Of a DNA stretch of 64,000 bases, positions 1-64,000 are shown one piece after another. Under the pieces are notes generated by a model. It saw only the letters and a list, made by a program, of their open reading frames with translations, was not told where the DNA came from and ran no database searches. The DNA is from an uncultured bacterium (GTDB taxonomy: Bacteria; Patescibacteriota; Minisyncoccia; Phycocordibacterales; UBA9973). Position numbers and translations under genes: made by a program. Where the stretch lies: NCBI GenBank assembly GCA_903894565.1, contig CAITQP010000005.1, forward strand, positions 28,971 through 92,970. The letters are read 5' to 3'. Each line of letters begins with the position of its first letter. The stretch's first letter is position 1.

Positions 1-164
1 TCTGGGAAACAACAATGGATCCTGCTCGTCGTATTTTGCGACAAGTCGCGATCGAAGACGGAGCTGAAGCAGATCGTGTATTTGATATGCTCATGGGCTC
101 CGATGTCGCTCCACGCAAATCGTTTATTCAGACATACGCTCATACTGCAGATATCGACATCTAA
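1..164 (+). CDS. gyrB: DNA gyrase subunit B, C-terminal end (5' truncated by the window edge)
   Basis: Frame from nt 3 translates to ...[48 protein letters not shown], matching the conserved GyrB C-terminus (LMGD.VEPRR.FIE.NA...DI). Stop TAA at 162-164. Confidence 0.7.
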
Positions 165-421
165 TGACTATACAGTTTCTCACGGAGACGGCAGGATGGA
201 TTGGTACAGGGCTTGTTGTGCTCGCATATGTATTGGTATCGACCAAGCGAGTACAAGGTTCAAGTACTTCATATCAATTACTTAATCTTTTTGGATCGAT
301 TGGTGTTGGTGCGAATGTGCTCTATCAACACGCAATTCCGTCGCTTGTACTTCAAGCGATCTGGGCATGCATTGCCGTGTTTACTCTTTCAAAGGCAATT
401 CTGGCAAAAATCATTAGATAA
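164..421 (+). CDS. Small (85 aa) two-helix membrane protein, possibly LAB_N-like; function unknown
   Basis: ATG overlaps the gyrB stop (TAATG). Hydrophobic segments LVVLAYVLV and IWACIAVFTL. Followed by a strong hairpin terminator. Confidence 0.45.
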   Translation: MTIQFLTETAGWIGTGLVVLAYVLVSTKRVQGSSTSYQLLNLFGSIGVGANVLYQHAIPSLVLQAIWACIAVFTLSKAILAKIIR

Positions 422-477
422 AAATACGCACAAAAAAACACGGAGGGTCATCCTTCGTGTTTTTTTGTGCGTATTTT
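421..477. terminator. Bidirectional intrinsic terminator: 22-bp perfect inverted repeat with A-tract and T-tract
   Basis: AAAATACGCACAAAAAAACACG (421-442) / loop / CGTGTTTTTTTGTGCGTATTTT (456-477). Lies between the convergent small ORF (+) and thrS (-). Confidence 0.65.
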
Positions 478-483
478 ATTTTG

Positions 484-2232
484 TTAGTTTAACGTCCTTT
501 CTTCAATTTCTTTTTCGAGGCGTGCTACAAATTCTTCAGGAGAGATATTTTCGATTTTTTCTGCGCGGGTCTCGACGGTGAGTACATTTGCATCGCGTTC
601 TTTGTCTCCAATAACAATGACGTAGGGAGTCTTCATGTTCTTGGCTTCGCGGATGCGCTTGCCCATTGAGTCCTTGCCATCATCGAGTTTTACGCGAATG
701 TTTTTTGCTTTCAACATTGCGTAAACTTTGTTTGCATATTCCTCATGAACATCTTTGATCGGCACGATGACGACTTGTGTTGGCGAAAGCCAAACAGGGA
801 AATTCCCAGCGAGGTGCTCGATGAGTGTACTCATAAAGCGTTCGATTGATCCCATGATGGCTGCGTGGATCATCACAACTTGTTCCTTTTCACCTTTTTC
901 ATTGATACAGGTGAGTTTGAAATTCTTTGGCTGATTGAAATCGAGCTGGATTGTGGCGACTTGGAGTACTCGTCCGATTGAGTCGCGAGAAATGAAGTCA
1001 ATTTTTGGTCCATAGAATGCTGCCTCACCAATACCATCAATCCATGTCACGTTGCGTGATTCCATGAGTTTTTGGAGCGCGTCCTCAGCTTTTTTCCAGA
1101 CGTCTGCGCCTCCGAGGTATTTTTCTGGTGTTGCTGGGTCGTGGCGAGAAAAGCGTACTTGGAGTTTAAACCCAAACGTATTGTAGAATGTTTCGATGAT
1201 GTCCCAGATGGCGAGTGCTTCTTGTTCAATCTGAATTTCACGACAGAATACGTGTGCGTCATCTTGGGTGATTGAGAGCACGCGTGAGAGTCCTGAGAGC
1301 TCACCAGACTGTTCGTCACGGTAGACCATCGTAGTCTCAGCATAACGCTGAGGCATATCACGGTAACTGCGAAGTTCGCTATCAAAAATTTGTGTATGAT
1401 GCGGACAGTTCATTGGCTTCATCGCGTAGAGGTGATCTTCGCGTGTATGAATCTTGAAGAGGTCATCGGCGTATTTTGCCCAATGGCCACTTGTTTCATA
1501 GAGTTCTTTTTTTGTGATGTGTGGAATTGTAACTTTTTCATATCCACGATCTTTACGAAGACTCCAGACATAGTCATTGAGTGCTTCACGGATCAGTGTG
1601 CCACGTGGGGTCCAAAGAGGGAGTCCTGGACCAACGAGTTCGGAGAATACGAAGAGGCCAAGCTCTTTGCCGAGTTTGCGGTGGTCTCGTTTCTTGGCTT
1701 CTTCTTGTTGTGTGATGTATGCGTCGAGTTCCTCTTTGGTGCTAAAAGCAAGACCATAAATGCGAGTGAGCATTTTGTTTTTCTCATCACCACGCCAATA
1801 TGCACCAGCAACGTGATCGAGTTTGAATGCATCAGCGGAAATTTCTTGACTTGGATTTTCTGAGTGACCTCCACGACAAAGGTCTTCAAAACCGCCACAG
1901 GTATAGAGTGTAATTTTCTCACCACGTCCGGCAATCTCTTCTATAAGTTCAAGTTTGTATTCGTTGCCGGCGAAGACTGTGCGTGCTTCCTCCGGACTTA
2001 CTTCGCGGTGCGTAAAAGCTGTCCATTTTGAAAGATTTTTTCGCATGGATTTTTGGAGATCTTTGAGGTTTTCGTCACTTACTTTATCATTGCCAAAATC
2101 GATGTCGTAATAGAAACCATTGTCGACAGCGGGTCCGAGAGTCAATTTTGCGCTTGGATATTGGTCTTTTACCGCTTGGGCGAGTAGGTGCGCAAGTGTA
2201 TGGCGGGCATGGGCGAGTTGTTCTTGGTTCAT
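484..2232 (-). CDS. thrS: Threonyl-tRNA synthetase (lacks N-terminal TGS/N1 domain)
   Basis: 582 aa with class II aaRS motifs and a ThrRS catalytic plus anticodon-binding region. Stop TAA. Confidence 0.9.
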   Translation of the reverse strand: MNQEQLAHARHTLAHLLAQAVKDQYPSAKLTLGPAVDNGFYYDIDFGNDKVSDENLKDLQKSMRKNLSKWTAFTHREVSPEEARTVFAGNEYKLELIEEIAGRGEKITLYTCGGFEDLCRGGHSENPSQEISADAFKLDHVAGAYWRGDEKNKMLTRIYGLAFSTKEELDAYITQQEEAKKRDHRKLGKELGLFVFSELVGPGLPLWTPRGTLIREALNDYVWSLRKDRGYEKVTIPHITKKELYETSGHWAKYADDLFKIHTREDHLYAMKPMNCPHHTQIFDSELRSYRDMPQRYAETTMVYRDEQSGELSGLSRVLSITQDDAHVFCREIQIEQEALAIWDIIETFYNTFGFKLQVRFSRHDPATPEKYLGGADVWKKAEDALQKLMESRNVTWIDGIGEAAFYGPKIDFISRDSIGRVLQVATIQLDFNQPKNFKLTCINEKGEKEQVVMIHAAIMGSIERFMSTLIEHLAGNFPVWLSPTQVVIVPIKDVHEEYANKVYAMLKAKNIRVKLDDGKDSMGKRIREAKNMKTPYVIVIGDKERDANVLTVETRAEKIENISPEEFVARLEKEIEERTLN

Positions 2233-2480
2233 ACTGAAATCCTAGCACGCTATAGGCTTTGGGAAAAGGTGTTGCGGATAATTCGAATAGGGGTATAGTG
2301 ATTCAAAACTTGCCACATGGAGATTCTTCAGAACGTTTTAATTATATGGCTTTGCTTTAATGGCACATTGATAGTGTGCGCTTTAGTAAGCTATGGAGTT
2401 TTTGTTGAAAAATAAAGGACTCCGCTCTATATCATCTTAACCTCGAAAGCGTAGAAATACGTGAGTAGAGGTTTTGTTTT

Positions 2481-5400
2481 TTATACAGCCTTGGCTTTTT
2501 CGATAACGAGACTCTTTTCGCCGTTGCGCTCGCTCACGCGAGCTTGTACTGCAACGACCGTATCAACCAAAAGAATATTTTGTAGTTCCGCGAACGCTTT
2601 GGTGAAGAGGACACCTTCAATTGAGCTTGTGAGATCGCCGACTTTGATGAATGCCATTTGTTCATTCTTCTTTGTGAAGATAACTTTCACCTCTTCGACG
2701 ATACAGGCGAACGTGACAGGGAAGCCAGGCTTCACTTCGTCGCGAATTTTCTTGATGGTCATGCCACTTTTTTCGATGCGATCACGGATGCGTTCGAGTG
2801 GATGTCCGGATACATACAATCCGAGCAATTCTTTTTCCCATTTCAATTTTTCAATTGTTTCAGCTTTTGGAGCTGGTGCGAGGGTGAGCGAGAGCGATTG
2901 AGTGGGGAGATCTCCAAACAGTGAGACTTGTGATCCAATATTTTGACGTTCTTTGTTGTATGCGAGCATGATTTCCATGTTGGCGAGCAGTTGTCCTCGT
3001 TCGCCGAAATGATCGAAGGCTCCGGCTTTGATGAGCGCCTCCATTGATTTCTTGTTGAGATTTTTGTGTGTGATGCGTTCGAGGAATTCAGTTACCGATT
3101 TGAAATCGCCACGCAGTCTGCGTTCTTCGATGATGGCGTTTGCGATATCTGCACCGAAGTTTTTGATGGTAAGCAAGCCGAAACGAATGATGCCTTCACC
3201 GGAGACATTTGAATTGTTGACCACAGTGAAGTCGGCGAAGCTCGCATTGATTTCTGGAGGGAGAACAGTGATGCCCATTTTGACGGCCTCGTTGATTATT
3301 TCGGCGACCTTCTCTGTGTCACCTGACTCGGCCGTCAAAATCGCACACAAATATTCCACAGGGAAATTCGCCTTCATATACGCCGTCTGATATGCCACGC
3401 GTCCATACGAAGCGGCGTGCGCCTTGTTGAATCCGTACGCTGCGAATGGTTCGATGAGAGCCCAGAGTTCCTGTGCTTTTTTTTCTGTGAGACCGTGCTC
3501 AACAAAACCTTCGAGCAAATGTTTTTTCTGCGCTTCCATTTCGGCTGGAATTTTTTTCCCCATTGCCTTACGGAGTTTGTCGGCTTCAAGCCATGAATAT
3601 CCGGCGAGCTTAATCGCAATCATCATGACGTCGTCCTGATACGTGATGACTCCGTATGATTGATCGAGAATATCTTTCATTCGTGGATCGAGATATCGCA
3701 CGAGTGATGGATTTTCTTTACGTTCAATATATTGTGGAATCATTTCCATCGGACCTGGGCGATACAGTGCGACCATGGCATTGATGTCGTGAATCGTTGT
3801 TGGTTTGAGTTGCTTGAGGTATGCAGTCATACCCGAGCCATTGAGCTGGAAGAGCCCCATCGTTTCTCCACGTGCGAGGATTTCAAATGTGCGTGCATCT
3901 TCGAGGGGAACTTTGTCGAGGTTCACATCAATATCACGAAGCTCCTTTACGAGACGCACAGCATCAGCGAGAATGGCAAGGTTGCGAATACCGAGGAAGT
4001 CGAATTTTGGCAGGCCCACATCTTCGATGTAGTGCATGTCATATTGAGTGATGATTGAACCACCTTTTGGATCAAACTGCACAGGTGCAAATTCGTAGAG
4101 TGGTTTTGGCGCGATAACGACACCTGCAGCATGAACAGACACGTGGCGTACACAGCCTTCGAGTTTGAGGGCGAGATCGATGATGTGCTTGGTGTCAGCT
4201 TCTTTTTTGTATGCATCAGCAAGTTCTGGAATGAGTTCCATCGCGTGCGTAATTGTCATAGGGAATCCCTGCGAGCCCATTGGAATGAGAGCCGAAATTC
4301 GGTCGCCAATCGCATACGGATATCCGAGTGCGCGGGCTACGTCACGCACTGAACCTTTGGCCATCATCGTTCCGAATGTTCCAATTTGCGCGACACGATC
4401 TTCACCATAGCGACGCTTGGCGTATTCAATCATTTCACCACGTCGGTTATCGGCGTAGTCCATATCAATATCGGGAAGCGACGGACGCTCTGGGTTGAGG
4501 AAACGTTCAAACGGAAGTTTGTATACGAGCGGATCAACGTTCGTAATTCCGATCAGATATGTCGTGAGCGATCCCGCGACCGATCCTCGAATATTTGTGA
4601 GAATACCGTTTTCACGCGCGAATTTGAGCAAGTCTCCCACGACGAGGAAGTATCCTGCGTAGCCTTTTTGTTTGATGACACTGAGCTCGTATTCGAGACG
4701 ATCGAGATATGGTTTCGTTTGTTCGAGATCGCGAAAAGCGAAACCGTCGTATGACAGTTCGCGTAATTTCATGTCCGCCGTAATTCCTTCAGGAAGGGGA
4801 AATTCAGGGAAGTAGGCGACACCGAGTTCAATCTCGTAATTCTCGCATAGGTCTGCGACTTTGGATGTGTTTGCAACAGCTTCGGGAATATCTGAAAAAT
4901 ATTCGAGCGCGGTTTTTTCATCGATGAGCGAAAAGTCGTCGTCAGGGAATTCAAATTTGCCCGTGTTGCCATCACCTTGTGTGTTGATTGCAAGGAGCGT
5001 GTGATGTGCCTCGTGGTCGTCACGACATGGATAGTGTGAGTCTTGTGTTGCGACGATAGTGACGTCGTGTTTTCGTGCAAGCTCAATGAGACGCTCGCGC
5101 ACGAGTTTGTCGTTTTCAATATGTGGATGGCTTTGTACTTCGATGAAATAATTTTCTTTGCCGAAGATGTCGAGGTGCTCGCGAACGATATCATCCGCTT
5201 TATCCATATCGTTCGCGAGCACTGCCTGCGAAAGTTCTCCGCCGAGACACGCCGAAAGACACACGATACCTTCGTGATATTTTCGCAAGATTTCTTTGTC
5301 CATGCGTGGCTTGTAGTAATAGCCTTCGAGGTTTGCAATCGTGACGAGACGAATGAGATTTTTGTATCCTTGCAGATTTTTGGCGAGGAGGATGAGGTGA

Positions 5401-5666
5401 TAGTAACGCTTGCCGTTACTGACCGCGACTTTGTCGAGGCGTGAGCCGGATGTGACATATGCCTCTACACCGATGATTGGTTTGATGCCTGCCTTGCGCG
5501 CAACTTTGTAGAATTCAATCGCCCCGTACATGTTTCCATGGTCAGTCAGAGCCACCGCTGTTTGGCTGTTCTTTTTTGCGATATCTACCATGTCCTCAAG
5601 TTTGGTCAGACCGTCGAGCAGGGAATAGTGCGAGTGCGTGTGGAGGTGGACGAATTTGGAGCTCAT
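2481..5666 (-). CDS. dnaE: DNA polymerase III alpha subunit
   Basis: PHP-domain start MSSKFVHLHTHSHYSLLDG at ATG 5664-5666 (the ORF track extends to TTG at 5684). ~1060 aa Pol III alpha architecture. Stop TAA. Confidence 0.9.
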   Translation of the reverse strand: MSSKFVHLHTHSHYSLLDGLTKLEDMVDIAKKNSQTAVALTDHGNMYGAIEFYKVARKAGIKPIIGVEAYVTSGSRLDKVAVSNGKRYYHLILLAKNLQGYKNLIRLVTIANLEGYYYKPRMDKEILRKYHEGIVCLSACLGGELSQAVLANDMDKADDIVREHLDIFGKENYFIEVQSHPHIENDKLVRERLIELARKHDVTIVATQDSHYPCRDDHEAHHTLLAINTQGDGNTGKFEFPDDDFSLIDEKTALEYFSDIPEAVANTSKVADLCENYEIELGVAYFPEFPLPEGITADMKLRELSYDGFAFRDLEQTKPYLDRLEYELSVIKQKGYAGYFLVVGDLLKFARENGILTNIRGSVAGSLTTYLIGITNVDPLVYKLPFERFLNPERPSLPDIDMDYADNRRGEMIEYAKRRYGEDRVAQIGTFGTMMAKGSVRDVARALGYPYAIGDRISALIPMGSQGFPMTITHAMELIPELADAYKKEADTKHIIDLALKLEGCVRHVSVHAAGVVIAPKPLYEFAPVQFDPKGGSIITQYDMHYIEDVGLPKFDFLGIRNLAILADAVRLVKELRDIDVNLDKVPLEDARTFEILARGETMGLFQLNGSGMTAYLKQLKPTTIHDINAMVALYRPGPMEMIPQYIERKENPSLVRYLDPRMKDILDQSYGVITYQDDVMMIAIKLAGYSWLEADKLRKAMGKKIPAEMEAQKKHLLEGFVEHGLTEKKAQELWALIEPFAAYGFNKAHAASYGRVAYQTAYMKANFPVEYLCAILTAESGDTEKVAEIINEAVKMGITVLPPEINASFADFTVVNNSNVSGEGIIRFGLLTIKNFGADIANAIIEERRLRGDFKSVTEFLERITHKNLNKKSMEALIKAGAFDHFGERGQLLANMEIMLAYNKERQNIGSQVSLFGDLPTQSLSLTLAPAPKAETIEKLKWEKELLGLYVSGHPLERIRDRIEKSGMTIKKIRDEVKPGFPVTFACIVEEVKVIFTKKNEQMAFIKVGDLTSSIEGVLFTKAFAELQNILLVDTVVAVQARVSERNGEKSLVIEKAKAV

Positions 5667-5774
5667 GTGCGCGTAGTATACCAACGATTGATGCCTTTAG
5701 ACAAAGATATTTTTTATTGTATAATTTTACTTTGTTTAGTTCGTTCGAAATTGTATTTGTTATATACTTACAGT

Positions 5775-7661: not shown

Positions 7662-7687
7662 TAGACATTAATTTACGATTTACTCTT

Positions 7688-10660: not shown

Positions 10661-11698
10661 TTACTTTGTGCTGAGCGAAGGAGCGTAGTTTGAATCGAGA
10701 ATAGTTTCATGAGGCGTCACATCAGTGACGTTTTTTCCTGTGAGCGTTGCGGTGACATAGAGACCATGCGTTGTGTTCGTAGAGAACGGTTGATCGAAGA
10801 TGAAGTTTCCGAGACTGTAGAGGATCGGTGCGCCGTTGTATGCGGCGATATCCTCAGCGACATGAGGATGCGCTCCGACAATCATAACTGCGCCATCATC
10901 AATCGCTTTTTGGGCGAGTGTTTCTTGGCGTGCATTGTGTTTGGTTTGATACTCAACACCAAAGTGGAATGAGACAATCAGTGAGTCGACTTTGGTCGAA
11001 GCCGTGCGTACGATCGAATCGAAATCTGGATCGTTTGCAAGGAGTACGCCAGCCTTTGTGTCTGTTGCAGCACCATCGTCTGGTCCAACATCAGTAAAGC
11101 ACAAGAACCCAACAGTGCGGTCTCCTTTGGTAAAGATTGCTGGAGTCTCTGCTTCTGTTTTGTTCATACCAATACCACATGTTTGTATTCCTCCCGCGCG
11201 AAGTCGCTCGAGTGTATCGACAAGTGCGGGCTCGCCCCAATCTTTGATGTGATTGTTTGCTGATGAGACAACATCGACGCCCGCATCTTTGAGTATGGAA
11301 ACAACTTTTGGATCCATACGGAATGAATACAAGTTGTGACGATCTGCACCGACGTCGCTCACAGGACCTTCGAGGTTTGCAAAAGTAATATCTGTATCTT
11401 TGAGAAAACTGGCATTCGCAAATAGTTTGGAATAATCACCATCAAGATTTTTGTTTACTTTAAACTTTACACCACGGTCGAGCATGATATCTCCGACCAT
11501 ACCGATAGTGATTGAAGTTGGCGCGGGGAGTGATGGAACAAGATTTTGTTGTGTCGCAATAACTGCAGCGGCTTGGTTTAGATCGTTTGTGGCAGGAAAA
11601 GAGAATTGGATATGTTCAAAACCACGCCCTAAAAAGCCTGCGGACAGACCGAGGAAAAGTAATCCAAACAAAAGTTGTTTATCCTTGTACGACTTCAT
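10661..11698 (-). CDS. CapA-family (PGA-biosynthesis / metallophosphatase-like) membrane-anchored protein
   Basis: N-terminal TM anchor, then the CapA-like pattern (MVGDIMLDRGV..., SSANNHIKDWG, GAHPHV). Start taken at MKSYKDK. Confidence 0.7.
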   Translation of the reverse strand: MKSYKDKQLLFGLLFLGLSAGFLGRGFEHIQFSFPATNDLNQAAAVIATQQNLVPSLPAPTSITIGMVGDIMLDRGVKFKVNKNLDGDYSKLFANASFLKDTDITFANLEGPVSDVGADRHNLYSFRMDPKVVSILKDAGVDVVSSANNHIKDWGEPALVDTLERLRAGGIQTCGIGMNKTEAETPAIFTKGDRTVGFLCFTDVGPDDGAATDTKAGVLLANDPDFDSIVRTASTKVDSLIVSFHFGVEYQTKHNARQETLAQKAIDDGAVMIVGAHPHVAEDIAAYNGAPILYSLGNFIFDQPFSTNTTHGLYVTATLTGKNVTDVTPHETILDSNYAPSLSTK

Positions 11699-13763
11699 AG
11701 TCAATCTGTCGGCGCTCTGGATCAGCACGAACGATTTTCACTTGTATTGTATCACCAATTCGATATTTTTTTTGCGAAATTTGTCCGGTCAATGTAGCGA
11801 GTCGAGGATTGAGACTGAATGGTTCATTCGCAAGTGTGCGAAGAGAGATGAGGCCTTCAGCTGTGGTCTCCTTGTCTCGTACATAGATGCCCCATTCAGC
11901 GATACCGGTAATCATTCCAGTAATTGTTTCGCCAACTTTTGTTGCCATGTATTCAGTGAGTTTGAATTTTACACTCTCGCGTTCTGCGTCAGCTGCGCGC
12001 ACTTCTGCCATCGAACACAGTCGCGCTACGCGCTCGTACGTCTTGCGTGCATTTGCAGGAGCTGGTTTGCCTGCGAGTGCATAGCGGAGCAAGCGATGAA
12101 TGACGAGGTCAGGATAGCGACGAATTGGGGAAGTAAAATGCGTGTAGTGTTTGAATTGCAAACCGTAGTGACCAATATTTTTGGTTGTGTACACAGCTTT
12201 GGCCATGGAACGAATCACAAAAGTGAGCGCGGTTTGTTTCAAGTCACCAGCTTCGAATGCATGAATGACATCACTGATCGCGCGAGGATCGAGCGATCCA
12301 TCTTTGCGGAGCGGAATCGGGTGACCGATTGAGCGCATGAAGAAGGCGAGGTCCTCGGCCTTTTCTGTTGTTGGCTGGTCGTGTGTTCGGTAGATGACAG
12401 AGTATTCACATTCGCCGTTCGGATTTGGTTTTCCTCCAGCTTTTTTAGATTTGCCACCACGCTCGAGGAATTCGGCGATGCGACGATTGGCAAGGAGCAT
12501 GAGCTCTTCAATCAATGTGTGACTTTCGGTGCGGATTTTTTTTACAATTTTGATTGGCTTGCCCGTCTCATCAATGATGACTTTGATTTCTTCTTGTTCG
12601 AGGATGAGTGCGCCTTCGTCGATACGTCCTTTGCCAAGCTTGCGTGCGATGCCGGCTGCAATCATTACTTCCTCGCGGAATTTGTGCGGTGCGCCATCAA
12701 GGACTTCTTGAGCTGATTCATACGTGAAGCGTTGTGCAGAATGAATGACGGTTGGTCCAAACCACGCGCCTTTTTCTTCGCCATCTGGTCCGAAGGTAAC
12801 GACGGCACTCATCGTGAGGCGGTCAACATCGGGAAGCAGGGAACACAAGTCGTCAGAGAGTACGCGTGGGAGCATTGGGATCGTGCGGTCGACGAGATAC
12901 ACAGACGTGCCACGTTCTATCGCTTCACGATCAAGTTCAGTTTTGGGCTGTACGTAATGCGAAACGTCGGCAATATGAATTCCGATTTCGACGTCACCGT
13001 TTGCAAGTTTCTCAACGGAAATTGCGTCGTCAAAATCTTTTGCATCGTATGGATCAATCGTGAATGTTACAATCTTGCGAAAATCACGACGATCGCGGAG
13101 GTCGTCGAGGGTTATACCACGCGCGTCGATAGCTTTTGCTTCGACGAGAACTTCGTCAGGAAATGCTTCGGTGAATCCGCGCTCAAGTGCAATGGCCTGC
13201 ATTTCTGTTTCGTGTTCACCTGGTTTGCCGAGGAGACGAACGACGCGACCAATCGGCGCAACATTTTGATTTTTCCATTCAGTCATTTCGACATACACAC
13301 GATCTCCCGGACGCGCATCAAGTGCCATGTCTTTTTGGATCGAAATATTTGCGTACATTTTTGGATCGGAAGCTTTGAGGATGTATGAATTGCCGAGTTG
13401 CGCGAGTACGCCAGTGAATTGTGTTTTGGCACGCATTACGATCTCGGTAATTCGACCGATGGTTTCTTTGGTAGGAGCACCTGTCGTGATTGATGGGCGA
13501 GTGGCTTTTGATCCCGTCACAACGACTTTGACTTCGTCGCCATGGAGTGCCATATTCATGTCGTTTTCAAACACACGAATGCCATCTTTGTATTCTTCGC
13601 ATTTGACGATACCACCTCCGCGACCAAGTACGACGAGCGTACCCTCAATGATTTTCTGAGGTCGGGCATGGTTCTTTGTTTGCGTTTTGTTTTCGTGAGA
13701 GGCTCGAGCGGAATGGTGCGGACGAGGGGCGTGCTTGTCTCCGCCTTGATGAGGTTTTTTCAT
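11679..13763 (-). CDS. rnr: Ribonuclease R (RNB-family 3'-5' exoribonuclease)
   Basis: RNB catalytic region, C-terminal S1 domain, His/Lys-rich basic N-terminal tail. Stop TAA. Confidence 0.85.
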   Translation of the reverse strand: MKKPHQGGDKHAPRPHHSARASHENKTQTKNHARPQKIIEGTLVVLGRGGGIVKCEEYKDGIRVFENDMNMALHGDEVKVVVTGSKATRPSITTGAPTKETIGRITEIVMRAKTQFTGVLAQLGNSYILKASDPKMYANISIQKDMALDARPGDRVYVEMTEWKNQNVAPIGRVVRLLGKPGEHETEMQAIALERGFTEAFPDEVLVEAKAIDARGITLDDLRDRRDFRKIVTFTIDPYDAKDFDDAISVEKLANGDVEIGIHIADVSHYVQPKTELDREAIERGTSVYLVDRTIPMLPRVLSDDLCSLLPDVDRLTMSAVVTFGPDGEEKGAWFGPTVIHSAQRFTYESAQEVLDGAPHKFREEVMIAAGIARKLGKGRIDEGALILEQEEIKVIIDETGKPIKIVKKIRTESHTLIEELMLLANRRIAEFLERGGKSKKAGGKPNPNGECEYSVIYRTHDQPTTEKAEDLAFFMRSIGHPIPLRKDGSLDPRAISDVIHAFEAGDLKQTALTFVIRSMAKAVYTTKNIGHYGLQFKHYTHFTSPIRRYPDLVIHRLLRYALAGKPAPANARKTYERVARLCSMAEVRAADAERESVKFKLTEYMATKVGETITGMITGIAEWGIYVRDKETTAEGLISLRTLANEPFSLNPRLATLTGQISQKKYRIGDTIQVKIVRADPERRQIDYEVVQG

Positions 13764-14357: not shown

Positions 14358-14669
14358 ATGGAACAGGATACAGCATTTCTTGAATACGTAGTAAAAGCAC
14401 TCGTCGACAACCCTAATGATGTGAAGATCGAGCGTACCGTCGATGAGATGGGCGTGCTCGTGAAGCTCACCGTCAACCCCGCAGATATGGGCAAGATCAT
14501 CGGCCGCCAAGGCAACACAGCTAAGGCTATCCGCACATTGCTCCGTGTCATCGGCATGAAGAATAATTCGCGCGTCAATTTGAAGATCAACGAACCAGAT
14601 GGCGGTACAAAAGCTGCTGGAATCGAAGAGACTTTTGATGAGGCAATGGCTGATTTGAAGAACATGTAG
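14358..14669 (+). CDS. KH-domain RNA-binding protein (YlqC/KhpA-like)
   Basis: GKIIGRQGNTAKAIRTLL KH motif. Located downstream of rpsP as in the rpsP-ylqC-rimM-trmD arrangement. Stop TAG. Confidence 0.8.
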   Translation: MEQDTAFLEYVVKALVDNPNDVKIERTVDEMGVLVKLTVNPADMGKIIGRQGNTAKAIRTLLRVIGMKNNSRVNLKINEPDGGTKAAGIEETFDEAMADLKNM

Positions 14670-20315: not shown

Positions 20316-21593
20316 ATGGCGGACCGCACACGCATCGAAAATTCATTTTCCCAAAACATTAAAGTCGGTTGGTATCTTGCCAAACGCGATATTAAGCGTG
20401 CCAATATTTGGACGACTGGACTCATCGTGCTCGTCATGACGTTTACGTTTCTTAATCTTGTCGTCGTTGCTGGAATTCTCGTCGGACTTATACAAGGCTC
20501 CGAGGATGCACAAAAAAAATATGCGATTGGAGACATTGTGATCTCATCTTTTTTGGATCACGCCTTTATTGAGCAGTCACCCAAAGTCGCAGATATTGCG
20601 AAAACAATCCCTGGATTTAAAGACGAAACTGTTCGCTATAGTGGGTCAGCAAAAGTGGAGAGTAACTATCGTAAGACACTTGCTCCAGGCGAAATTGCAG
20701 ATGGTGCAGGAGGTTCTTTCCTGGGTATTGATCCTGTTGCAGAAGAAAATTTTTCTGGTGTTTCAAAATTTGTCATTCGTGGACAATATCTCACACCGGA
20801 AGATCAGGACAGTGTTTTGATTGGTAAAAATTTACTCTATGAGTTTACTCCGATTGATGCACCTGGTTTTCAAACACTCAAAAATGTTTCGATTGGTTCG
20901 CGTATTCGTATTACGGTTGGGAATAACCAAAAAGAATATTATGTGAAAGGAATCGTGTCTTCAAAAGTCGATGTGTTTGATACGTCGGTGATTGGACTTG
21001 CAAGTGAAGTTCGCAAGATGACAGGCAGAACGGATTTGAACGCATCATCGATCGCGATTCAGCTTCTTCCGAACACCGATCCTATTGCAGCCAAACAATT
21101 CTTGCTTGATAGTGGTGTTGGTTCGTATGGGCGTGTGCAAACTGCTGCTGAAGCATTTCCAAAATTCTTGCAGGATATCAAGACCACATTCGCGATTCTT
21201 GGAAACGCGATCAGTGGTATTGGTTTGATTGTGGCATCAATCACAATTTTCATTGTTATTTTTGTCAACGCAATCACTCGTCGTAGATTCATTGGAATTT
21301 TGAAGGGGATTGGTATCAACCGTCGTGCGATATTATATTCCTACATGTTTCAAGCACTGATTTATGCATTGATTGGTGTGACGATTGGTATGTTTCTTGT
21401 ATTCGTGATTATCAAACCATATTTCTCTGCAAACCCGATCAACTTCCCATTCTCGGATGGTATTCTTGTTGCTACTGTTTCGGGTACATTCTTGCGCGCT
21501 GGAATCCTTATGGTGACGACGATAATCGCTGGATATATTCCTGCACGTATCGTTATTAAACAAAACACGTTGAGCGCGATTCTCGGAAGATAA
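20316..21593 (+). CDS. ABC transporter permease, MacB/FtsX family
   Basis: N-terminal TM, large periplasmic domain, C-terminal FtsX-like 3-TM bundle. Confidence 0.8.
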   Translation: MADRTRIENSFSQNIKVGWYLAKRDIKRANIWTTGLIVLVMTFTFLNLVVVAGILVGLIQGSEDAQKKYAIGDIVISSFLDHAFIEQSPKVADIAKTIPGFKDETVRYSGSAKVESNYRKTLAPGEIADGAGGSFLGIDPVAEENFSGVSKFVIRGQYLTPEDQDSVLIGKNLLYEFTPIDAPGFQTLKNVSIGSRIRITVGNNQKEYYVKGIVSSKVDVFDTSVIGLASEVRKMTGRTDLNASSIAIQLLPNTDPIAAKQFLLDSGVGSYGRVQTAAEAFPKFLQDIKTTFAILGNAISGIGLIVASITIFIVIFVNAITRRRFIGILKGIGINRRAILYSYMFQALIYALIGVTIGMFLVFVIIKPYFSANPINFPFSDGILVATVSGTFLRAGILMVTTIIAGYIPARIVIKQNTLSAILGR

Positions 21594-23627: not shown

Positions 23628-23792
23628 ATGCAAGAAACACACACGTGTCGTATCTGCTCACATGACTTCGCTATAACCGAGGAGGATTTTGGATTTTATG
23701 AGAAGATGGCCGTGCCTGCGCCAACACTTTGTGCTGAGTGCCGTCAACAACGTCGCTACGCATGGCGCAACGAGCGCACATTGTATCGCTGA
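23628..23792 (+). other. 54-codon zinc-ribbon module (CxxC-x27-CxxC) ending at an in-frame TGA; apparent N-terminal part of the downstream Cys-rich gene
   Basis: ATG 23628: MQETHTCRICSHDFAITEEDFGFYEKMAVPAPTLCAECRQQRRYAWRNERTLYR-TGA(23790-23792)-TCDFCGK... Same frame as the 23820 ORF. Homologous to the C-terminal module of that ORF. Confidence 0.55.
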
Positions 23793-23819
23793 ACGTGCGA
23801 CTTTTGTGGCAAAAGTACG

Positions 23820-25319
23820 GTGACAATTTATTCTCCAAACAAACCATTCAAAGTATATTGTGTTCCGTGTTGGTGGAGTGACGGTTGGGATCCCGCAAGC
23901 TTCGGACGTGACTACGATTTCTCACGACCGTTTTTTGAACAATTTAGCGGGCTCCAACATGAGGTGCCACGCATGGCATTACTCACGAAAAATAGTATCA
24001 ATTCTGAATACACAAATCATTCCGGTGATAATAAAAATGTGTATCTTTCCTTTGCTGCTTTTGGATCAGAGAATGTATGGTACAGCACCTGGGCCATGAA
24101 GTCTCGTGACTGCATGGACTGTAGTTTTATTGCCGACAAAGGTGAGCGTTTATATTTTGTTTCTGATTCTCGCACTTCGTATAAGTGTCAGTACGGAATT
24201 TTCTTGAAAGACTGTTCCTCGTGTCACTACGTATACGATGCTCACGGATGTACTAATTGTTTTATGTCGTCGAATATGCGAAACAAGAGCTACATGTTTC
24301 GGAATGAGCAATGCACTCGAGAAGAATATTTTCAAAAAATGCAGGAAATTGATTTGTCTTCATTCGAGACGAGAGAAACATTGAGTGAAGAGTTCGAAGT
24401 GCTAATGGAAATTGGTTCCATACATCGTTATGTCGTTAGTGAGCGCAATGCTAACTCAATTGGGTCTCTTATGTACGATTGTAAAAACGTTACTGATTCT
24501 TTTGAAACAAACAAATGTGAGGACTCTAAATATATTTATGGTGGAATAGAAAATAGAAACTGCGCGGATATTTACCATGTTGGCTATAACGTTGAACTTT
24601 GTTACGAACTGCAAGGCTGTACTCGAGTGACGAATTCAGCGTTTTGTCATTTGTGCTACGACAATACGTTTTTGCAGTATTGTGATTCCTGCCAGAATAG
24701 TCAGAATTTGTTTGGGTGTGTATCGATAAAAAAAGGTGAGTACATGATTCTCAATAAAAAATATTCCAAAGAGGAATATACTTATCTTCGCGCGAGAATC
24801 ATCGAGCAGATGAAATCGACTGGTGAGTATGGTGAATTTTTCCCACCAAATATTGCACCTGTGTATTACAACGAAACACAAGGCGCACTCTATATGCCAC
24901 TCTCGAAAGAGGAAACGCTTGCTCGTGGCTGGCAGTGGGAAGACAACCTTCCAGGGACATACGGCAAAGAGACGGTCACTCCGGAGAATGTACCTGATTC
25001 GATTCTCGAGGTGTCAGACTCAGCGACCAAAGAAATTTATCGTTGCATGACGTGCACGAAGAATTTTAATATCGTACCTGATGAACTCGCGTTCTATCGT
25101 CGAGAAATAATTCCACTTCCGCGCCGCTGCCCTGATTGTAGATACAAACGTCGTTTTGCACTTCGTCCACCACGCAAGCTCTGGCCGAGGACATGTATGT
25201 GTACACGGACGAATCACGAACACGGAGATACGTGTCCGAACACATTCGAGACTCCATTTGCCCCCGAACGACCTGAACAGGTATTTTGTGAAGCGTGTTA
25301 TCAGCAGGAAGTGATATAA
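23820..25319 (+). CDS. Cys-rich multi-zinc-ribbon protein (about 28 Cys, about 4 CxxC-pair ribbons); no Met start of its own unless translation continues from the upstream segment
   Basis: 499-aa ORF from GTG 23820: ...CDFCGK..CVPCWW..., many CxxC pairs. C-terminal module CMTCTKNFNIVPDELAFYRREIIPLPRRCPDCRYKRR. Stop TAA. Confidence 0.7.
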   Translation: MTIYSPNKPFKVYCVPCWWSDGWDPASFGRDYDFSRPFFEQFSGLQHEVPRMALLTKNSINSEYTNHSGDNKNVYLSFAAFGSENVWYSTWAMKSRDCMDCSFIADKGERLYFVSDSRTSYKCQYGIFLKDCSSCHYVYDAHGCTNCFMSSNMRNKSYMFRNEQCTREEYFQKMQEIDLSSFETRETLSEEFEVLMEIGSIHRYVVSERNANSIGSLMYDCKNVTDSFETNKCEDSKYIYGGIENRNCADIYHVGYNVELCYELQGCTRVTNSAFCHLCYDNTFLQYCDSCQNSQNLFGCVSIKKGEYMILNKKYSKEEYTYLRARIIEQMKSTGEYGEFFPPNIAPVYYNETQGALYMPLSKEETLARGWQWEDNLPGTYGKETVTPENVPDSILEVSDSATKEIYRCMTCTKNFNIVPDELAFYRREIIPLPRRCPDCRYKRRFALRPPRKLWPRTCMCTRTNHEHGDTCPNTFETPFAPERPEQVFCEACYQQEVI

Positions 25320-27105: not shown

Positions 27106-27122
27106 TCAGAGGCATGCGATGT

Positions 27123-27155
27123 AAAAACCACAAGAGGTAATCTCTTGTGGTTTTT
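27123..27155 (+). terminator. Intrinsic terminator after the SWIB gene
   Basis: AAAAACCACAAGAG-GTAAT-CTCTTGTGGTTTTT. Confidence 0.65.
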
Positions 27156-27190
27156 AGTTTTCGTTTAACATGCAGTGATACAGTATCAAT

Positions 27191-27499: not shown

Positions 27500-27527
27500 C
27501 GTATATGGTATATGGTATCATATACAA

Positions 27528-47599: not shown

Positions 47600-47609
47600 A
47601 TTTAACTTG

Positions 47610-47682
47610 AGCCGCTTCTCGGACTCGAACCGAGGACCCACGCTTTACAAAAGCGTTGCTCTACCAACTGAGCTAAAGCGGC
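47610..47682 (-). tRNA. tRNA-Thr (anticodon UGU), 73 nt, no encoded CCA
   Basis: Reverse complement GCCGCTTTAGCTCAGTTGGTAGAGCAACGCTTTTGTAAAGCGTGGGTCCTCGGTTCGAGTCCGAGAAGCGGCT. 7-bp acceptor stem, D stem GCTC/GAGC, anticodon stem ACGCT/AGCGT with loop TTTGTAA, T arm CTCGG-TTCGAGT-CCGAG. Confidence 0.85.
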
Positions 47683-59992: not shown

Positions 59993-60000
59993 TTGATCGT

Positions 60001-60996: not shown

Positions 60997-61022
60997 CGTA
61001 AACTCAATGGTAGTATGCAGAC

Positions 61023-62252
61023 ATGAAAAGTCAAGACGTGGCCAAAGCGAAATTGCCAGATACTCCAGGAGTATATTTTTTTCGCTTGGGCAGTGAAATT
61101 CTCTATATCGGCAAAGCAACATCCCTCCGTGACCGAACGAAGAGCTATTTTGCCAAAGACCTCATTGCTACTCGTGGTCCACTCATCGTCGATATGGTGT
61201 TCAAGGCTGACACGATTACATTCGAACAAACAGACTCCGTACTTGAAGCACTTATTCTTGAAGCAAATCTGATCAAGAAATATCAGCCGTATTACAATAC
61301 AAAAGAAAAGGACGATAAAAGTTGGAACTATGTTTGTATTACCAAAGGGGACTGTCCGATGGTGTTAGTTGAGCGCGGAAAGAATATCAATTTTGAGACG
61401 GGGACTACCTCAAATAGTGTGGTGTTGAGTGATTGGTACGGACCATTCACGAGCGGGACACAGCTCAAAGAAGCACTCAAAATTATTCGCAAAATTTTCC
61501 CTTTTGTCGATGCCTCGAGCGCGAAGCGCGACAACTATGAATTTTATCGGCAGCTTGGACTCACGCCCGATGTCTCGGGTGAGGAAAAGCTCACGGCATA
61601 TAAACGCAGTGTTCGTAACCTGAAGTTATTTTTTGAAGGAAAGAAAAAAACAATAGTGACCGAACTTGAACGAGAAATGAAGCTTGCTGCAAAGGCTGAG
61701 CGTTTTGAGGATGCGTCGCATATTCGCAATCAACTTTTTGCACTTGGTCATATCAATGATATCGCACTGCTAAAAAGTGATCCAAGTATTCGAAAAGAAA
61801 AAGCTGGTTTTCGGATCGAAGCATATGATGTTGCGCATATGAGCGGAAAAAACATGGTCGGTGTCATGACGGTCATGGAAGATGGTGAGGTAAACAAAAA
61901 AGAATACCGTACATTTACCGTGCGAGGATTTACGAAAGCAAACGATACGGGTGCTCTCGAGGAAATTCTCTCACGCAGACTTCGCCATACGGAATGGGGC
62001 ATGCCCGATCTCGTGGTGGCCGATGGAGGAGAGGCTCAGCTTCGTGTTGCTCGTCAGGTGCTTGATCGGTATCAACTAAAAGTTCCCGTTGTGTCTGTGG
62101 TCAAAGATGATCATCACAAGCCAAAAGATTTTTTGGGTGATATGGATATGGTAGAAAAACACAAAAAAGAAATCCTGTTAATGAATTCTGAGGCGCATCG
62201 TTTTTCGATTCGTCTACATAAAAACAAACGAGACAAGAATTTTTTGCCGTAA
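61023..62252 (+). CDS. uvrC: Compact UvrC-like excinuclease subunit (GIY-YIG, UVR and RNase-H-like endonuclease domains; no HhH)
   Basis: GVYFFRLGSEILYIGKATSLRDR (GIY-YIG), UVR motif ELEREMKLAAKAERFEDASHIRNQLFAL, C-terminal endonuclease domain (RIEAYDVAHMSG...PDLVVADGGEAQ...EAHRFSI). 409 aa. Confidence 0.75.
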   Translation: MKSQDVAKAKLPDTPGVYFFRLGSEILYIGKATSLRDRTKSYFAKDLIATRGPLIVDMVFKADTITFEQTDSVLEALILEANLIKKYQPYYNTKEKDDKSWNYVCITKGDCPMVLVERGKNINFETGTTSNSVVLSDWYGPFTSGTQLKEALKIIRKIFPFVDASSAKRDNYEFYRQLGLTPDVSGEEKLTAYKRSVRNLKLFFEGKKKTIVTELEREMKLAAKAERFEDASHIRNQLFALGHINDIALLKSDPSIRKEKAGFRIEAYDVAHMSGKNMVGVMTVMEDGEVNKKEYRTFTVRGFTKANDTGALEEILSRRLRHTEWGMPDLVVADGGEAQLRVARQVLDRYQLKVPVVSVVKDDHHKPKDFLGDMDMVEKHKKEILLMNSEAHRFSIRLHKNKRDKNFLP

Positions 62253-63202
62253 TGCGATATACTGAGTATATGATTCGTGTTGGAGTACTTCGTGGAGGAG
62301 CAGGAACAAATTACGAGCAATCACTCGCGAGTGGAGCCTACGTACTTAAACATCTTCCTTCTGATCGCTATGAATTGATTGATCTGTACATCGACACCGA
62401 GGGGACTTGGCATCTTGGAGGTCTTCCAGTTTCAGAAGAACGATTGCGTCATCGAGTAGATGTCATTTGGAATACACTGCTTGGTTATTTTGGAGCAGAT
62501 GGGAAAGTGCAACAATTGTTGGAACGGCTTGGAATTCAGTATACGGGGAGTGGCCCGCTCGCTTCAGCTATTGTCGCTAATCGCAAGTTACAAAAAGATC
62601 GACTCGCTACTCTCGGGATACTTACTCCCCGCGGAGTCTTTATTGAATCATGGGGAGAGGGATCATATGATGAAAAGGTTGTTGATGGTGTCGTTGGAAC
62701 AATTTCAAAAAAATTTTCTCCGCCATGGATTATCTCGCCACTGTATCCGAGTGACGATCCTTCGTCGGTGATTGCAAAAACCCGAGTTGACCTCACTGAC
62801 ATGCTTCAAGAGAAATGTCAGAACAAAATTCCAGTACTCGTTGAAGAAGCGGTATTCGGACAAAAAGTATCTGTTATTGCCTCGAGTGGTTTCCGCAAAC
62901 AAAAAACATATACATTTTTACCTGTTGAAAAAAAAGATGGTGCCTATCGAAAATTAAGTAAGAAAGAACGCGATAGTGTACAGCACATTGCGAAGCATTT
63001 GCATGAGAGCCTCGAGCTCGGTCCTTATTCGTGCGTACACGCGATTGTTTCTACGAAAGGGAAGGTATATATTCTCGGCATTGATACGGTGCCAGTCCTT
63101 CATTCAGAATCCGTACTTCATGAAATGCTCTCGTCCGTTGGCTCTTCGTTCGGTGAATTTTCGGAACATATGATCACTCATGCTCGTACGCGAAAGGTCT
63201 AG
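62252..63202 (+). CDS. ddl: D-alanine--D-alanine ligase-family ATP-grasp protein
   Basis: RVGVLRGGAGTNYEQSLASGAYVL Ddl-like N-terminus, ATP-grasp C-terminal half. Start overlaps the uvrC stop (TAATG). Confidence 0.65.
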   Translation: MRYTEYMIRVGVLRGGAGTNYEQSLASGAYVLKHLPSDRYELIDLYIDTEGTWHLGGLPVSEERLRHRVDVIWNTLLGYFGADGKVQQLLERLGIQYTGSGPLASAIVANRKLQKDRLATLGILTPRGVFIESWGEGSYDEKVVDGVVGTISKKFSPPWIISPLYPSDDPSSVIAKTRVDLTDMLQEKCQNKIPVLVEEAVFGQKVSVIASSGFRKQKTYTFLPVEKKDGAYRKLSKKERDSVQHIAKHLHESLELGPYSCVHAIVSTKGKVYILGIDTVPVLHSESVLHEMLSSVGSSFGEFSEHMITHARTRKV

Positions 63203-63281
63203 ACCTCTTTTCCACATCCGGGTCGAGTTTTTTATGCAAGAAGAGTATACTTATATTACTAGTAATTAATTAGCAGTATTT

Positions 63282-63749
63282 ATGAAAAACAAACAAGCTG
63301 GTTTTACCCTTATTGAACTTTTGGTTGTTATCGCTATCATTGGAATTCTCGCAACGATAGTCCTTACATCACTTGGAAGTGCTCGTGTGAAGGCAAACGA
63401 TGCGAAGGTCCAAGCACAACTTTCTTCCATGCGTGCACAAGGAGAAATGTTCTTTGGTGATAATTCTAGCTACGGCAGTTCACAGTCTTCATACGGAGAT
63501 TGCCACACAGGTGAGTTGTTCCTTGCTGGATCAAACACGCTCTTCTCACTTATTTCTGCAATACCATCAACATACACTGTTACTTGTTACGAAGATCCAT
63601 ATGGCTCAGGAAGTGCAACTGCTTGGGGCGTCACTGCTTCGAACGGGCTCGCGATTGGAGGTGCTTCGTGGTGCGCGGATAGTACTGGCCAGTTTAAGAA
63701 CTACTCAGGATCAACTCCTGCGACCCCGTTGCTTGCTGTTTGTCAGTAA
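63282..63749 (+). CDS. Type IV pilin / pseudopilin (prepilin-type N-terminal cleavage-methylation domain)
   Basis: MKNKQAGFTLIELLVVIAIIGILATIVL class III signal; two Cys pairs in the C-terminal region. Confidence 0.8.
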   Translation: MKNKQAGFTLIELLVVIAIIGILATIVLTSLGSARVKANDAKVQAQLSSMRAQGEMFFGDNSSYGSSQSSYGDCHTGELFLAGSNTLFSLISAIPSTYTVTCYEDPYGSGSATAWGVTASNGLAIGGASWCADSTGQFKNYSGSTPATPLLAVCQ

Positions 63750-63765
63750 TGAGATTTTTTGATTA

Positions 63766-63809
63766 ACACGCAGTAAAAAAACGCCATTAGGCGTTTTTTT
63801 ACTGCGTGT
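63766..63809. terminator. Bidirectional intrinsic terminator between the pilin gene and tRNA-Ala
   Basis: ACACGCAGTAAAAAAACGCC-ATTA-GGCGTTTTTTTACTGCGTGT. Confidence 0.7.
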
Positions 63810-63836
63810 ATCGTGTTGTCGAGAATCGAACGGTTG

Positions 63837-63909
63837 TGGACCCTAGGAGATTCGAACTCCTGACCTCCTCTTTGCAAAAGAGGCGCTCTACCAACTAAGC
63901 TAAGGGCCC
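63837..63909 (-). tRNA. tRNA-Ala (anticodon UGC), 73 nt, G3:U70 identity pair present, no encoded CCA
   Basis: Reverse complement GGGCCCTTAGCTTAGTTGGTAGAGCGCCTCTTTTGCAAAGAGGAGGTCAGGAGTTCGAATCTCCTAGGGTCCA. Anticodon loop TTTGCAA. Acceptor stem GGGCCCT/AGGGTCC with a G3-U70 wobble. Confidence 0.85.
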
Positions 63910-64000
63910 AAAAAATAACTTCGGTATTGTAGCTTAGATTTATCTTTTTCGCAAGAAATGACTATTTTAATCAGACTATTTTAGGGCAAGAAATTCACTT

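What the first reader, a model, noticed from the sequence alone, without database searches (positions are those of the whole stretch)
1..64000. None of ~56 CDS stop codons in this window is TGA
Reading the stop codon of every CDS called here (both strands) gives about 46 TAA, about 8 TAG (rnhB, rnc, the KH gene, the FN3 protein, the thioredoxin-like gene, mreB, ddl, ORF 47716) and 0 TGA. If TGA were used for even 10% of stops, seeing none in 56 would be expected well under 1% of the time. TGA is not a frequent sense codon either: all long housekeeping ORFs (rpoB, rpoC, dnaE, uvrA, thrS) are uninterrupted and Trp is encoded by TGG. That rules out code 4 or code 25 style wholesale reassignment. 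The pattern fits an unassigned or very rarely used UGA (for example loss or weak activity of RF2). That makes the one in-frame TGA in the Cys-rich gene (23790) more likely to be read through than to be a true stop.
Basis: seen in the sequence. Interest (0 to 1): 0.7.

Follow-up and report, generated by a model that had tools for sequence, protein, structure and literature searches.

The report
TGA-poor stop codon usage, CPR bacterium
This stretch of an uncultured Nomurabacteria-type (CPR) bacterium has no TGA stop codons, but its relatives use TGA rarely and genuinely as a stop, and the one in-frame TGA is a single-base nonsense change of an arginine codon, so it is a strong lineage-wide codon bias under the standard code and not a changed genetic code.

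Summary
I curated 52 genes in the window: 44 end in TAA, 8 in TAG and none in TGA. Six more genes in the left flank of the same genome all end in TAA. There is one in-frame TGA in 20,147 codons, although TGA is abundant out of frame.

The right comparison is the lineage, not bacteria in general. The organism is a Paceibacterota ('Ca. Nomurabacteria') bacterium.
- In 80 related rpoB loci, TGA ends about 9-10% of genes.
- In the 24 closest of these it ends about 5%.
- In five family-level relatives it ends 4 of 81 genes.
- A beta-binomial fit gives P(0 of 52) of about 0.1.

Relatives use TGA as a real stop. One example is the ortholog of the window's FtsX-like gene in the GTDB relative L001. None of the 80 relatives has an in-frame TGA inside conserved genes.

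The in-frame TGA at 23790 replaces an Arg that is kept in 118 of 119 homologs. Three congeneric strains carry CGA there, with intact 563-codon genes. It is therefore a strain-specific C-to-T nonsense change and gives no evidence of read-through.

I could not locate prfB, so RF2 loss in this genus is unsupported but not excluded. It is ordinary biology, mildly interesting as a clade-wide TGA avoidance.

The parts
1..64000 (.). Gene set of the window: 52 genes, with stops 44 TAA, 8 TAG and 0 TGA. It includes housekeeping genes (thrS, dnaE, rnc, smc, rnr, rpsP, typA, trmD, rpoB, rpoC, dnaG, sigA, proABC, tsf, rpsB, proS, mreBC, tgt, uvrABC, ddl) and lineage-specific genes.
   Evidence: ENA gene tables
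23628..25319 (+). Cys-rich gene of 563 codons with no Pfam hit. It belongs to a family with more than 5000 homologs, mostly in Nomurabacteria/Paceibacterota. The reading frame is open throughout except for one TGA. ENA's gene caller reports only a 448-aa product starting at 23973.
23790..23792 (+). The only in-frame TGA (codon 55 of the Cys-rich gene). It aligns with Arg in 118 of 119 homologs. Congeners L086, L087 and L088 have CGA here with identical flanking codons, so this is a C-to-T transition. It is also present in an independent Logan assembly (L081).
   Evidence: no significant downstream hairpin (z = -1.17)
20316..21593 (+). FtsX-like permease gene ending ...GGA AGA TAA. Its ortholog in relative L001 ends ...GGA CGG TGA at the same codon, which is a genuine TGA stop in a near relative.
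11679..13763 (-). RNase R gene ending in TAA. Orthologs in L095, L005, L008 and L018 end in TGA, with alignments that reach both C-termini.
62250..62254 (+). TAATG stop/start overlap between uvrC and ddl. The window has no ATGA overlap, which is the context holding two of the four TGA stops in family-level relatives.
47609..47682 (-). tRNA-Thr(UGU). It is not a UGA decoder.
63836..63909 (-). tRNA-Ala(UGC). It is not a UGA decoder.

Best explanation
The window comes from a Paceibacterota ('Candidatus Nomurabacteria'-type, CPR/Patescibacteria) bacterium that uses the standard bacterial code. In this lineage TAA is strongly preferred, TAG comes second and TGA is a rare but functional stop.

The most likely cause is inferred from published work on other bacteria: a termination system in which RF2 is scarce or inefficient relative to RF1, so selection disfavours the leaky UGA. 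With a lineage rate of roughly 3-5%, a 52-gene window with no TGA stop is an expected sampling outcome.

The single in-frame TGA at 23790 is a recent, strain-specific CGA-to-TGA nonsense mutation in a fast-evolving Cys-rich gene. This follows directly from the comparison with congeners. Whether the truncated gene is dead, reinitiated downstream or occasionally read through is not known.
For: Identity: the rpoB best matches are Nomurabacteria/Paceibacterota MAGs. The window lies on a 112.7-kb MAG contig.

Lineage rates (codon-model caller, validated on the window):
- L001-L002: 1 of 32 stops are TGA.
- L003-L024: 14 of 278 (5%).
- L025-L050: 9.7%.
- L051-L080: 15%.
- Conserved-ORF-only count for L003-L024: 6 of 199 (3%).
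- Five family-level relatives (L001, L002, L085, L095, L096): 4 of 81.
- Beta-binomial predictive P(0/52) = 0.095-0.114.
- 20 of the 54 loci with at least 10 genes have no TGA stop.

TGA is a real stop in relatives:
- The L001 FtsX-like ortholog ends in TGA at the orthologous codon.
- RNase R ends in TGA in L005, L008, L018 and L095.
- rpoB, dnaG and sigA end in TGA in L051.

Standard code: there is no internal in-frame TGA in 603 HSPs covering 311,448 aligned columns.

Selection and not mutation:
- TAG outnumbers TGA by 202 to 82.
- Orthologous stop switches run about 10 TAA<->TAG against 1 TAA<->TGA.
- TGA is abundant out of frame.

Literature: UGA falls below UAG where RF2 is the scarcer factor, and UGA is the leakiest stop (PMC4989110).

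Nonsense mutation:
- Arg in 118 of 119 homologs.
- CGA in L086, L087 and L088, whose genes are intact at 563 codons.
- The window's genes hold 188 CGA codons, each one transition away from TGA.
Against: - prfB/RF2 was not found. No RF homolog lies in the window, in the roughly 20 kb of known gene content to its left, in the roughly 10 kb to its right, or in any fetched locus. RF2 presence in this genome is therefore inferred from relatives only.
- Within the genus (window strain plus congeners L086-L089 and L091) I saw 0 TGA stops in about 66 distinct genes. At the family rate of 4.9% that has P of about 0.04, so the genus may use TGA even less than its family, or not at all.
- The gene carrying the TGA is otherwise intact.
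- The RF2-scarcity mechanism is an inference from other phyla.
Confidence: 0.8

Rival explanations
1. UGA is unassigned in this genus. All UGA stops have been replaced, RF2 has been lost or disabled, and no dedicated tRNA reads UGA. A CGA-to-UGA change would then be tolerated, because a near-cognate tRNA such as tRNA-Arg(UCG), pairing through a first-position G·U, slowly decodes it. This would be a codon-capture intermediate.
For: - 0 TGA stops in 58 genes of this genome and in about 66 distinct genes of the genus, which is marginally below the family rate (P about 0.04).
- One in-frame TGA sits at an invariant Arg in an otherwise intact gene.
- CPR bacteria read CGA with tRNA-Arg(UCG) (PMC8629427).
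- The related CPR lineages Gracilibacteria and Absconditabacteria have reassigned UGA (PMC9297842).
Against: - Relatives at 88-91% rpoB identity use TGA as a stop.
- Congeners carry CGA, not TGA, at the site.
- There is only one in-frame TGA in 20,147 codons and none in the congeners' genes.
- The zero count is a roughly 10% outcome under the clade's own distribution.
- No positive evidence for RF2 loss could be obtained.
Confidence: 0.08
2. Nothing lineage-specific is happening. The genome has ordinary TGA usage for its GC content, and the window lacks TGA by chance and because it is rich in highly expressed housekeeping genes that prefer TAA.
For: - The window holds rpoBC, tsf, rpsB, rpsP, rpmF, aminoacyl-tRNA synthetases and similar genes.
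Against: - About half of the 52 genes are not highly expressed types: hypotheticals, a toxin-antitoxin pair, a glycosyltransferase, the uvr genes and ABC transporters.
- At a 20-25% rate, 0 of 52 has P below 1e-5.
- The deficit is seen across 80 relatives, including non-conserved genes.
- TAG exceeds TGA throughout.
Confidence: 0.08
3. UGA is a sense codon here: a reassignment to Arg, Gly or Trp, or selenocysteine at 23790.
For: An in-frame TGA lies in a conserved, otherwise intact gene, and there are no TGA stops.
Against: - There is a single occurrence in 20,147 codons.
- None occurs in the conserved genes of 80 relatives.
- The homologous residue is Arg, not Cys, Gly or Trp.
- There is no significant SECIS-like hairpin downstream (z = -1.17).
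- Congeners encode the residue with CGA.
- No tRNA(UCA) was found in the window or in the 40 of the 80 related rpoB loci that were scanned (L001-L040), but that is only a small fraction of each genome.
Confidence: 0.02

Closest known systems
Standard-code bacteria in which RF2 is the scarcer release factor and UGA is used less than UAG (Staphylococcus aureus, Streptococcus pyogenes and Bacillus anthracis in Wei, Wang & Xia 2016, PMC4989110)
   Same: Code 11, with TAA dominant, TAG above TGA, and TGA retained as a rare but real stop.
   Different: Those are low-GC Firmicutes with measured RF1 and RF2 levels. Here GC is 45% (family range 41-58%), TGA is rarer still (0-5%), and RF levels, and even prfB presence, are unmeasured.
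Genetic code 25 of Gracilibacteria and Absconditabacteria (UGA = Gly, RF2 lost, tRNA-Gly(UCA))
   Same: Same superphylum (Patescibacteria/CPR), and no UGA stops in the sampled genes.
   Different: Code 25 genomes carry many in-frame UGAs at conserved Gly positions. Here there is one in-frame UGA in 20,147 codons, at an Arg position, and none in relatives.
Genetic code 4 (UGA = Trp) of Mycoplasmatales/Entomoplasmatales and several reduced endosymbionts
   Same: No UGA stops.
   Different: Trp is encoded only by TGG here (153 codons), and no in-frame TGA falls at a Trp position. The genome is not AT-extreme (AT3 = 0.58).
Unassigned codons and the codon-capture intermediate (Osawa-Jukes model; for example CGG in Mycoplasma capricolum and AGA/AUA in Micrococcus luteus; from my own knowledge)
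   Same: A codon that has almost vanished from its normal role.
   Different: Unassignment requires loss of the decoder. That could not be tested here, and near relatives still use the codon.
Ordinary nonsense pseudogenisation by CGA-to-TGA transition
   Same: A single C-to-T change at an Arg CGA codon, intact orthologs in sister strains, and a reading frame that is otherwise undamaged.
   Different: No difference was detected. Only the read-level allele frequency is unknown.

Membership tests
Standard bacterial code (table 11) with TGA-poor stop usage | TGA terminates genuine genes in the lineage | tested here: met
   The L001 FtsX-like ortholog ends in TGA at the orthologous stop position. 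RNase R ends in TGA in L005, L008, L018 and L095. L051 rpoB, dnaG and sigA end in TGA. L085 and L096 have ATGA overlaps. This was not observed in the window genome itself (0 of 58).
Standard bacterial code (table 11) with TGA-poor stop usage | No in-frame TGA inside conserved genes | tested here: met
   There is none in 311,448 aligned columns across 80 relatives. The window has one, and congeners show it to be a CGA-to-TGA change.
Standard bacterial code (table 11) with TGA-poor stop usage | prfB (RF2) present and intact | not testable with these tools
   No RF homolog lies in the window, its known flanks or the fetched loci. The rest of the genome could not be reached.
UGA sense-codon codes (table 4 / table 25) | Recurrent in-frame UGA at conserved Trp or Gly positions | tested here: not met
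   One in-frame TGA in 20,147 codons, at a position that is Arg in 118 of 119 homologs.
UGA sense-codon codes (table 4 / table 25) | tRNA with anticodon UCA | tested here: inconclusive
   Only tRNA-Thr(UGU) and tRNA-Ala(UGC) are in the window. L082 has none, and L001-L040 carry only tRNA-Thr and tRNA-Lys. The genome-wide tRNA set was not available.
Unassigned UGA (RF2 lost, no reassignment) | Zero UGA stops genome-wide | tested here: inconclusive
   0 of 58 in this genome and 0 of about 66 distinct genes in the genus. That is only about 10% of a genome, and it is compatible with a 3-5% usage rate.
Unassigned UGA (RF2 lost, no reassignment) | Absence of prfB | not testable with these tools
   Same evidence as the prfB row under the standard-code family.
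Selenoprotein gene (UGA = Sec) | UGA aligns with Cys or Sec in homologs | tested here: not met
   Arg in 118 homologs and His in 1.
Selenoprotein gene (UGA = Sec) | SECIS stem-loop just downstream of the UGA | tested here: not met
   Folding 23785-23860 gives -13.5 kcal/mol with z = -1.17. 23 of 200 shuffles fold at least as well.

The most novel reading that the evidence does not exclude
In this Nomurabacteria genus UGA has been cleared from all gene ends and RF2 has been lost or crippled, which leaves UGA effectively unassigned. The CGA-to-UGA change in the Cys-rich gene survives because tRNA-Arg(UCG) can read UGA through a first-position G·U pair and restore the wild-type Arg. That would be a living codon-capture intermediate in the same superphylum as the code-25 CPR lineages, possibly heading towards UGA = Arg.
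Probability: 0.06. Interest if true: 0.8.

Novelty: new member of a known kind. Interest (0 to 1): 0.27.

Why it matters
As it stands this is mainly a calibration lesson. A stop-codon anomaly has to be judged against the organism's own lineage. Here the lineage rate of about 5% TGA turns a result of P below 1e-5 into one of P about 0.1.

The residual interest is at clade level. Paceibacterota, in the same superphylum as the two CPR lineages that reassigned UGA, avoid UGA as a stop across a GC range of 30-58% and prefer TAG to it. If that reflects an RF2-poor termination system, it would be the kind of pre-condition that codon-capture models require.

A genome-wide check of prfB and TGA stops in this genus would cheaply show whether any member has gone all the way.

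Tried and rejected
1. Length-only greedy gene calling produced false TGA stops from shadow ORFs, both in the window and in relatives. I replaced it with a conservation-based caller and a codon-model caller.
There were no hits. The query is from memory and only a sliver of each genome was searched, so this says nothing about the whole genome.
3. I tried walking along the 146-kb contig of the same genome.
   - The search for homologous proteins with the UvrD-like fragment at the end of L082 did not return the self protein.
   - The listing of cluster members ids were accepted for look-ups.
   - The look-ups for the right flank and the far left flank returned gene tables without DNA. Only 9.5 kb of extra sequence was gained (L082). 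The Pfam tables for those flanks show no PCRF/RF-1 domain.
4. Literature searches for RF2/prfB or stop-codon usage in Patescibacteria/Parcubacteria found nothing specific.
5. Selenocysteine was rejected.
6. An assembly artefact at 23790 was rejected, because a Logan assembly is identical over 15.9 kb. All assemblies probably derive from the same read set, however.
7. tRNA scans of the window, L082 and L001-L040 found no UCA anticodon.
8. One protein search, the metagenome scan and the structure tools were left unused, because no query available to me could target this genome's prfB.
Full report
**What the window is.** GC content is about 45%. rpoB (28009-31224) is 90% and 89% identical to two 'Candidatus Nomurabacteria' MAGs (L001 JAHFNO01, L002 CALQZW01). 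It is 68-76% identical to 78 other Paceibacterota/Parcubacteria genomes. The exact protein lies on a 112,754-bp contig of ENA ERZ1426828, on a 146,448-bp contig of ERZ27313292, and on Logan contigs of run ERR4193932. The organism is therefore an uncultured CPR/Patescibacteria bacterium of the Paceibacteria class.

**Checking the observation.** A mechanical stop-to-stop listing shows that every large non-nested ORF ends in TAA or TAG. The many TGA-ending ORFs are nested shadow ORFs. A length-only caller kept two TGA-ending ORFs. Pfam shows that these overlap the real KhpA-type KH gene (14358-14669, TAG), the SWIB gene and the Gp49 gene.

A codon-usage caller recovered 49 genes, 41 ending in TAA and 8 in TAG. 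After adding rpmF, the Gp49/HTH pair, the 3' end of the first gene and the full Cys-rich gene, the curated set has 52 genes and covers 94.6% of the window. Its stops are 44 TAA, 8 TAG and 0 TGA.

There is one in-frame TGA among 20,147 codons. In the same genes TGA occurs 421 times in frame +1 and 939 times in frame +2. The absence at gene ends is therefore not a lack of the trinucleotide. The 9.5 kb to the left of the window in the same genome (L082) adds gyrB, a Peptidase_S74 protein, pheT, pheS, a glyoxalase-like gene and a UvrD/PD-(D/E)XK helicase. All of them end in TAA. The total is 0 of 58.

**Is it more than chance?** Against a generic bacterium, yes: 0.75^52 is about 3e-7 and 0.9^52 is about 0.004. 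The relevant reference, however, is the lineage. I called genes in the 80 related rpoB loci (about 1.5 Mb) with the same codon-model caller.
- L001-L002: 1 of 32 stops are TGA.
- L003-L024: 14 of 278 (5.0%).
- L025-L050: 9.7%.
- L051-L080: 15%.

Counting only ORFs conserved in at least three other genomes gives 6 of 199 (3%) for L003-L024. With a stricter score cut-off, the 80 loci together give 594 TAA, 202 TAG and 82 TGA. Of the 54 loci with at least 10 genes, 20 have no TGA stop. Beta-binomial fits to 24, 50 or 80 loci all predict P(0 of 52) of about 0.10.

Five family-level relatives (rpoB 88-91% identical: L001, L002, L085, L095, L096) have 4 TGA stops in 81 genes. The window's zero is therefore at the low end of its clade's normal range. 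It is not an outlier.

**TGA is a working stop codon in the relatives.**
- In L001 the ortholog of the window's FtsX-like gene (20316-21593) ends ...GGA CGG TGA where the window has ...GGA AGA TAA. The next gene starts about 50 nt downstream.
- RNase R ends in TGA in L005, L008, L018 and L095, and the alignments reach both C-termini.
- In L051 (55% GC) rpoB, dnaG, sigA, rpsP and the KH gene all end in TGA.
- In L085 and L096 the TGA sits in an ATGA start/stop overlap.

Conversely, tblastn of the window's proteins against all loci gave 603 HSPs and 311,448 aligned columns with no internal in-frame TGA. Stops appear only where an HSP overruns a gene end, or in a masked stretch of L064. The clade uses the standard code.

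**The clade-level bias is selective, not mutational.** TAG and TGA have the same base composition, yet TAG outnumbers TGA by 202 to 82, and it does so in every GC bin below 0.52. L085, at 57.7% GC, has 8 TAA, 8 TAG and 1 TGA.

Among orthologs of the window strain's genes in six relatives I counted about 10 TAA<->TAG differences and 1 TAA<->TGA difference. Both changes are single A<->G transitions. The pairs are not phylogenetically independent, so this count is only indicative.

Published work on 14 species shows three relevant things. UGA falls below UAG where RF2 is the less abundant factor. UGA is the leakiest stop. UGA is never preferred in highly expressed genes (PMC4989110). I therefore infer an RF2-poor or RF2-inefficient termination regime in this clade. 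This is an inference, and no RF gene or abundance was observed.

**The in-frame TGA.** The gene runs from ATG 23628 to TAA 25319, which is 563 codons. Homologs are 547-582 aa long and cover the N-terminal part that lies upstream of the TGA. The TGA column is Arg in 118 of 119 homologs and His in one.

Members of the window's 90% rpoB cluster include congeners with 99.5% (P0222, NCBI GCA_037143195.1) and 99.9% (P0225, ENA GROS21-1 samples) identical rpoB. Their loci (L086, L087, L088; DNA identity to the window 84-96%) carry an intact 563-codon ortholog. The codon there is CGA. In L087 and L088 the ten flanking codons are identical to the window's. The window's TGA is therefore a single C-to-T transition of CGA.

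It is not an assembler artefact, because the Logan contig L081 is identical to the window over 15.9 kb, TGA included. All of the assemblies probably come from one read set, though. There is no significant hairpin downstream and the homologous residue is not Cys, so selenocysteine is excluded. The window's genes contain 188 CGA codons, so one CGA-to-TGA hit in a strain is unremarkable. Nothing requires read-through.

If read-through does occur, near-cognate decoding by tRNA-Arg(UCG) would happen to restore Arg. That tRNA is the CGA reader in CPR according to PMC8629427. This is speculation.

**What could not be settled.** I could not reach prfB. No PCRF/RF-1 protein lies in the window, in the gene tables for about 20 kb to the left and 10 kb to the right of it, or in any fetched locus.

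Within the genus I saw no TGA stop in about 66 distinct genes. These come from the window, L082, and the eight extra genes of L091. At the family rate that has P of about 0.04, so a further reduction in this genus, or even complete loss, is not excluded. I give that reading about 6-8%.

**Comparison with known systems and verdict.** The pattern works like the UGA-poor, RF1-leaning stop usage described in some standard-code Firmicutes. It does not meet the defining feature of codes 4 or 25, which is recurrent in-frame UGA at conserved positions. It also fails the selenoprotein tests.

'Rarely used UGA' is right. 'Unassigned UGA / RF2 loss' and 'read-through at 23790' are not supported. The finding is a new example of a known kind of codon bias, with modest interest because it lies in the same superphylum as the CPR lineages that reassigned UGA.

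Noticed in passing
window 23628-25319; L016 12080-18337: The Cys-rich 563-aa protein has many CxxC pairs and no Pfam hit. It belongs to a very large family (5209 hits at E <= 1e-10) that seems confined to Nomurabacteria/Paceibacterota, and L016 carries four tandem paralogs. Between congeners it is far more diverged (about 84% DNA and 76% aa identity) than its neighbours (rpoB 99.5-99.9% aa), which suggests rapid or diversifying evolution.
   Followed up: partly
window 2481-5684 (-) versus L091 19614-21815 and L092 14189-16390: dnaE of the congeneric GROS21-1 strains is 1488 aa and contains an intein (Intein_splicing plus LAGLIDADG_3). The window's dnaE is about 1061 aa and has no intein.
   Followed up: no
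window 26809-27797: A SWIB-domain gene is followed by a Gp49-like/HTH toxin-antitoxin pair just upstream of rpoB. The toxin-antitoxin pair is strain-specific: L087 has an unrelated 211-aa gene there and L086 has only an HTH gene.
   Followed up: no
L001-L080 (rpoB loci of Paceibacterota): TAG stops outnumber TGA stops by 202 to 82 across the class, in every GC bin below 0.52. TGA usage is over-dispersed between genomes, from 0 of 17 to 8 of 14. This may mark subclades with different RF2 status.
   Followed up: partly
L085 (ENA ERZ19034065, 720-kb scaffold): This relative has 88% identical rpoB but 57.7% GC, against 45% here and 41% in L001. That is a very wide GC range within one family. Even at 57.7% GC it has 8 TAA, 8 TAG and only 1 TGA.
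   Followed up: partly
L085 20967-20970; L096 5244-5247; window 62250-62254: Two of the four TGA stops in family-level relatives are locked in ATGA start/stop overlaps. The window has no ATGA overlap and uses TAATG instead.
   Followed up: partly
window 44128-47547; right of the window on the 112.7-kb contig: Several very large ORFs have no Pfam hit: one of 1139 aa in the window, and others of 2258 aa and 646 aa immediately to the right (seen only as gene tables). The left flank holds a 977-aa Peptidase_S74 protein (L082 14249-17182), which is 1107 aa with an added DUF5907 domain in congeners.
   Followed up: no
window 28009-31224: rpoB is short, at 1071 aa, throughout this clade (1069-1094 aa in the 90% cluster).
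   Followed up: no
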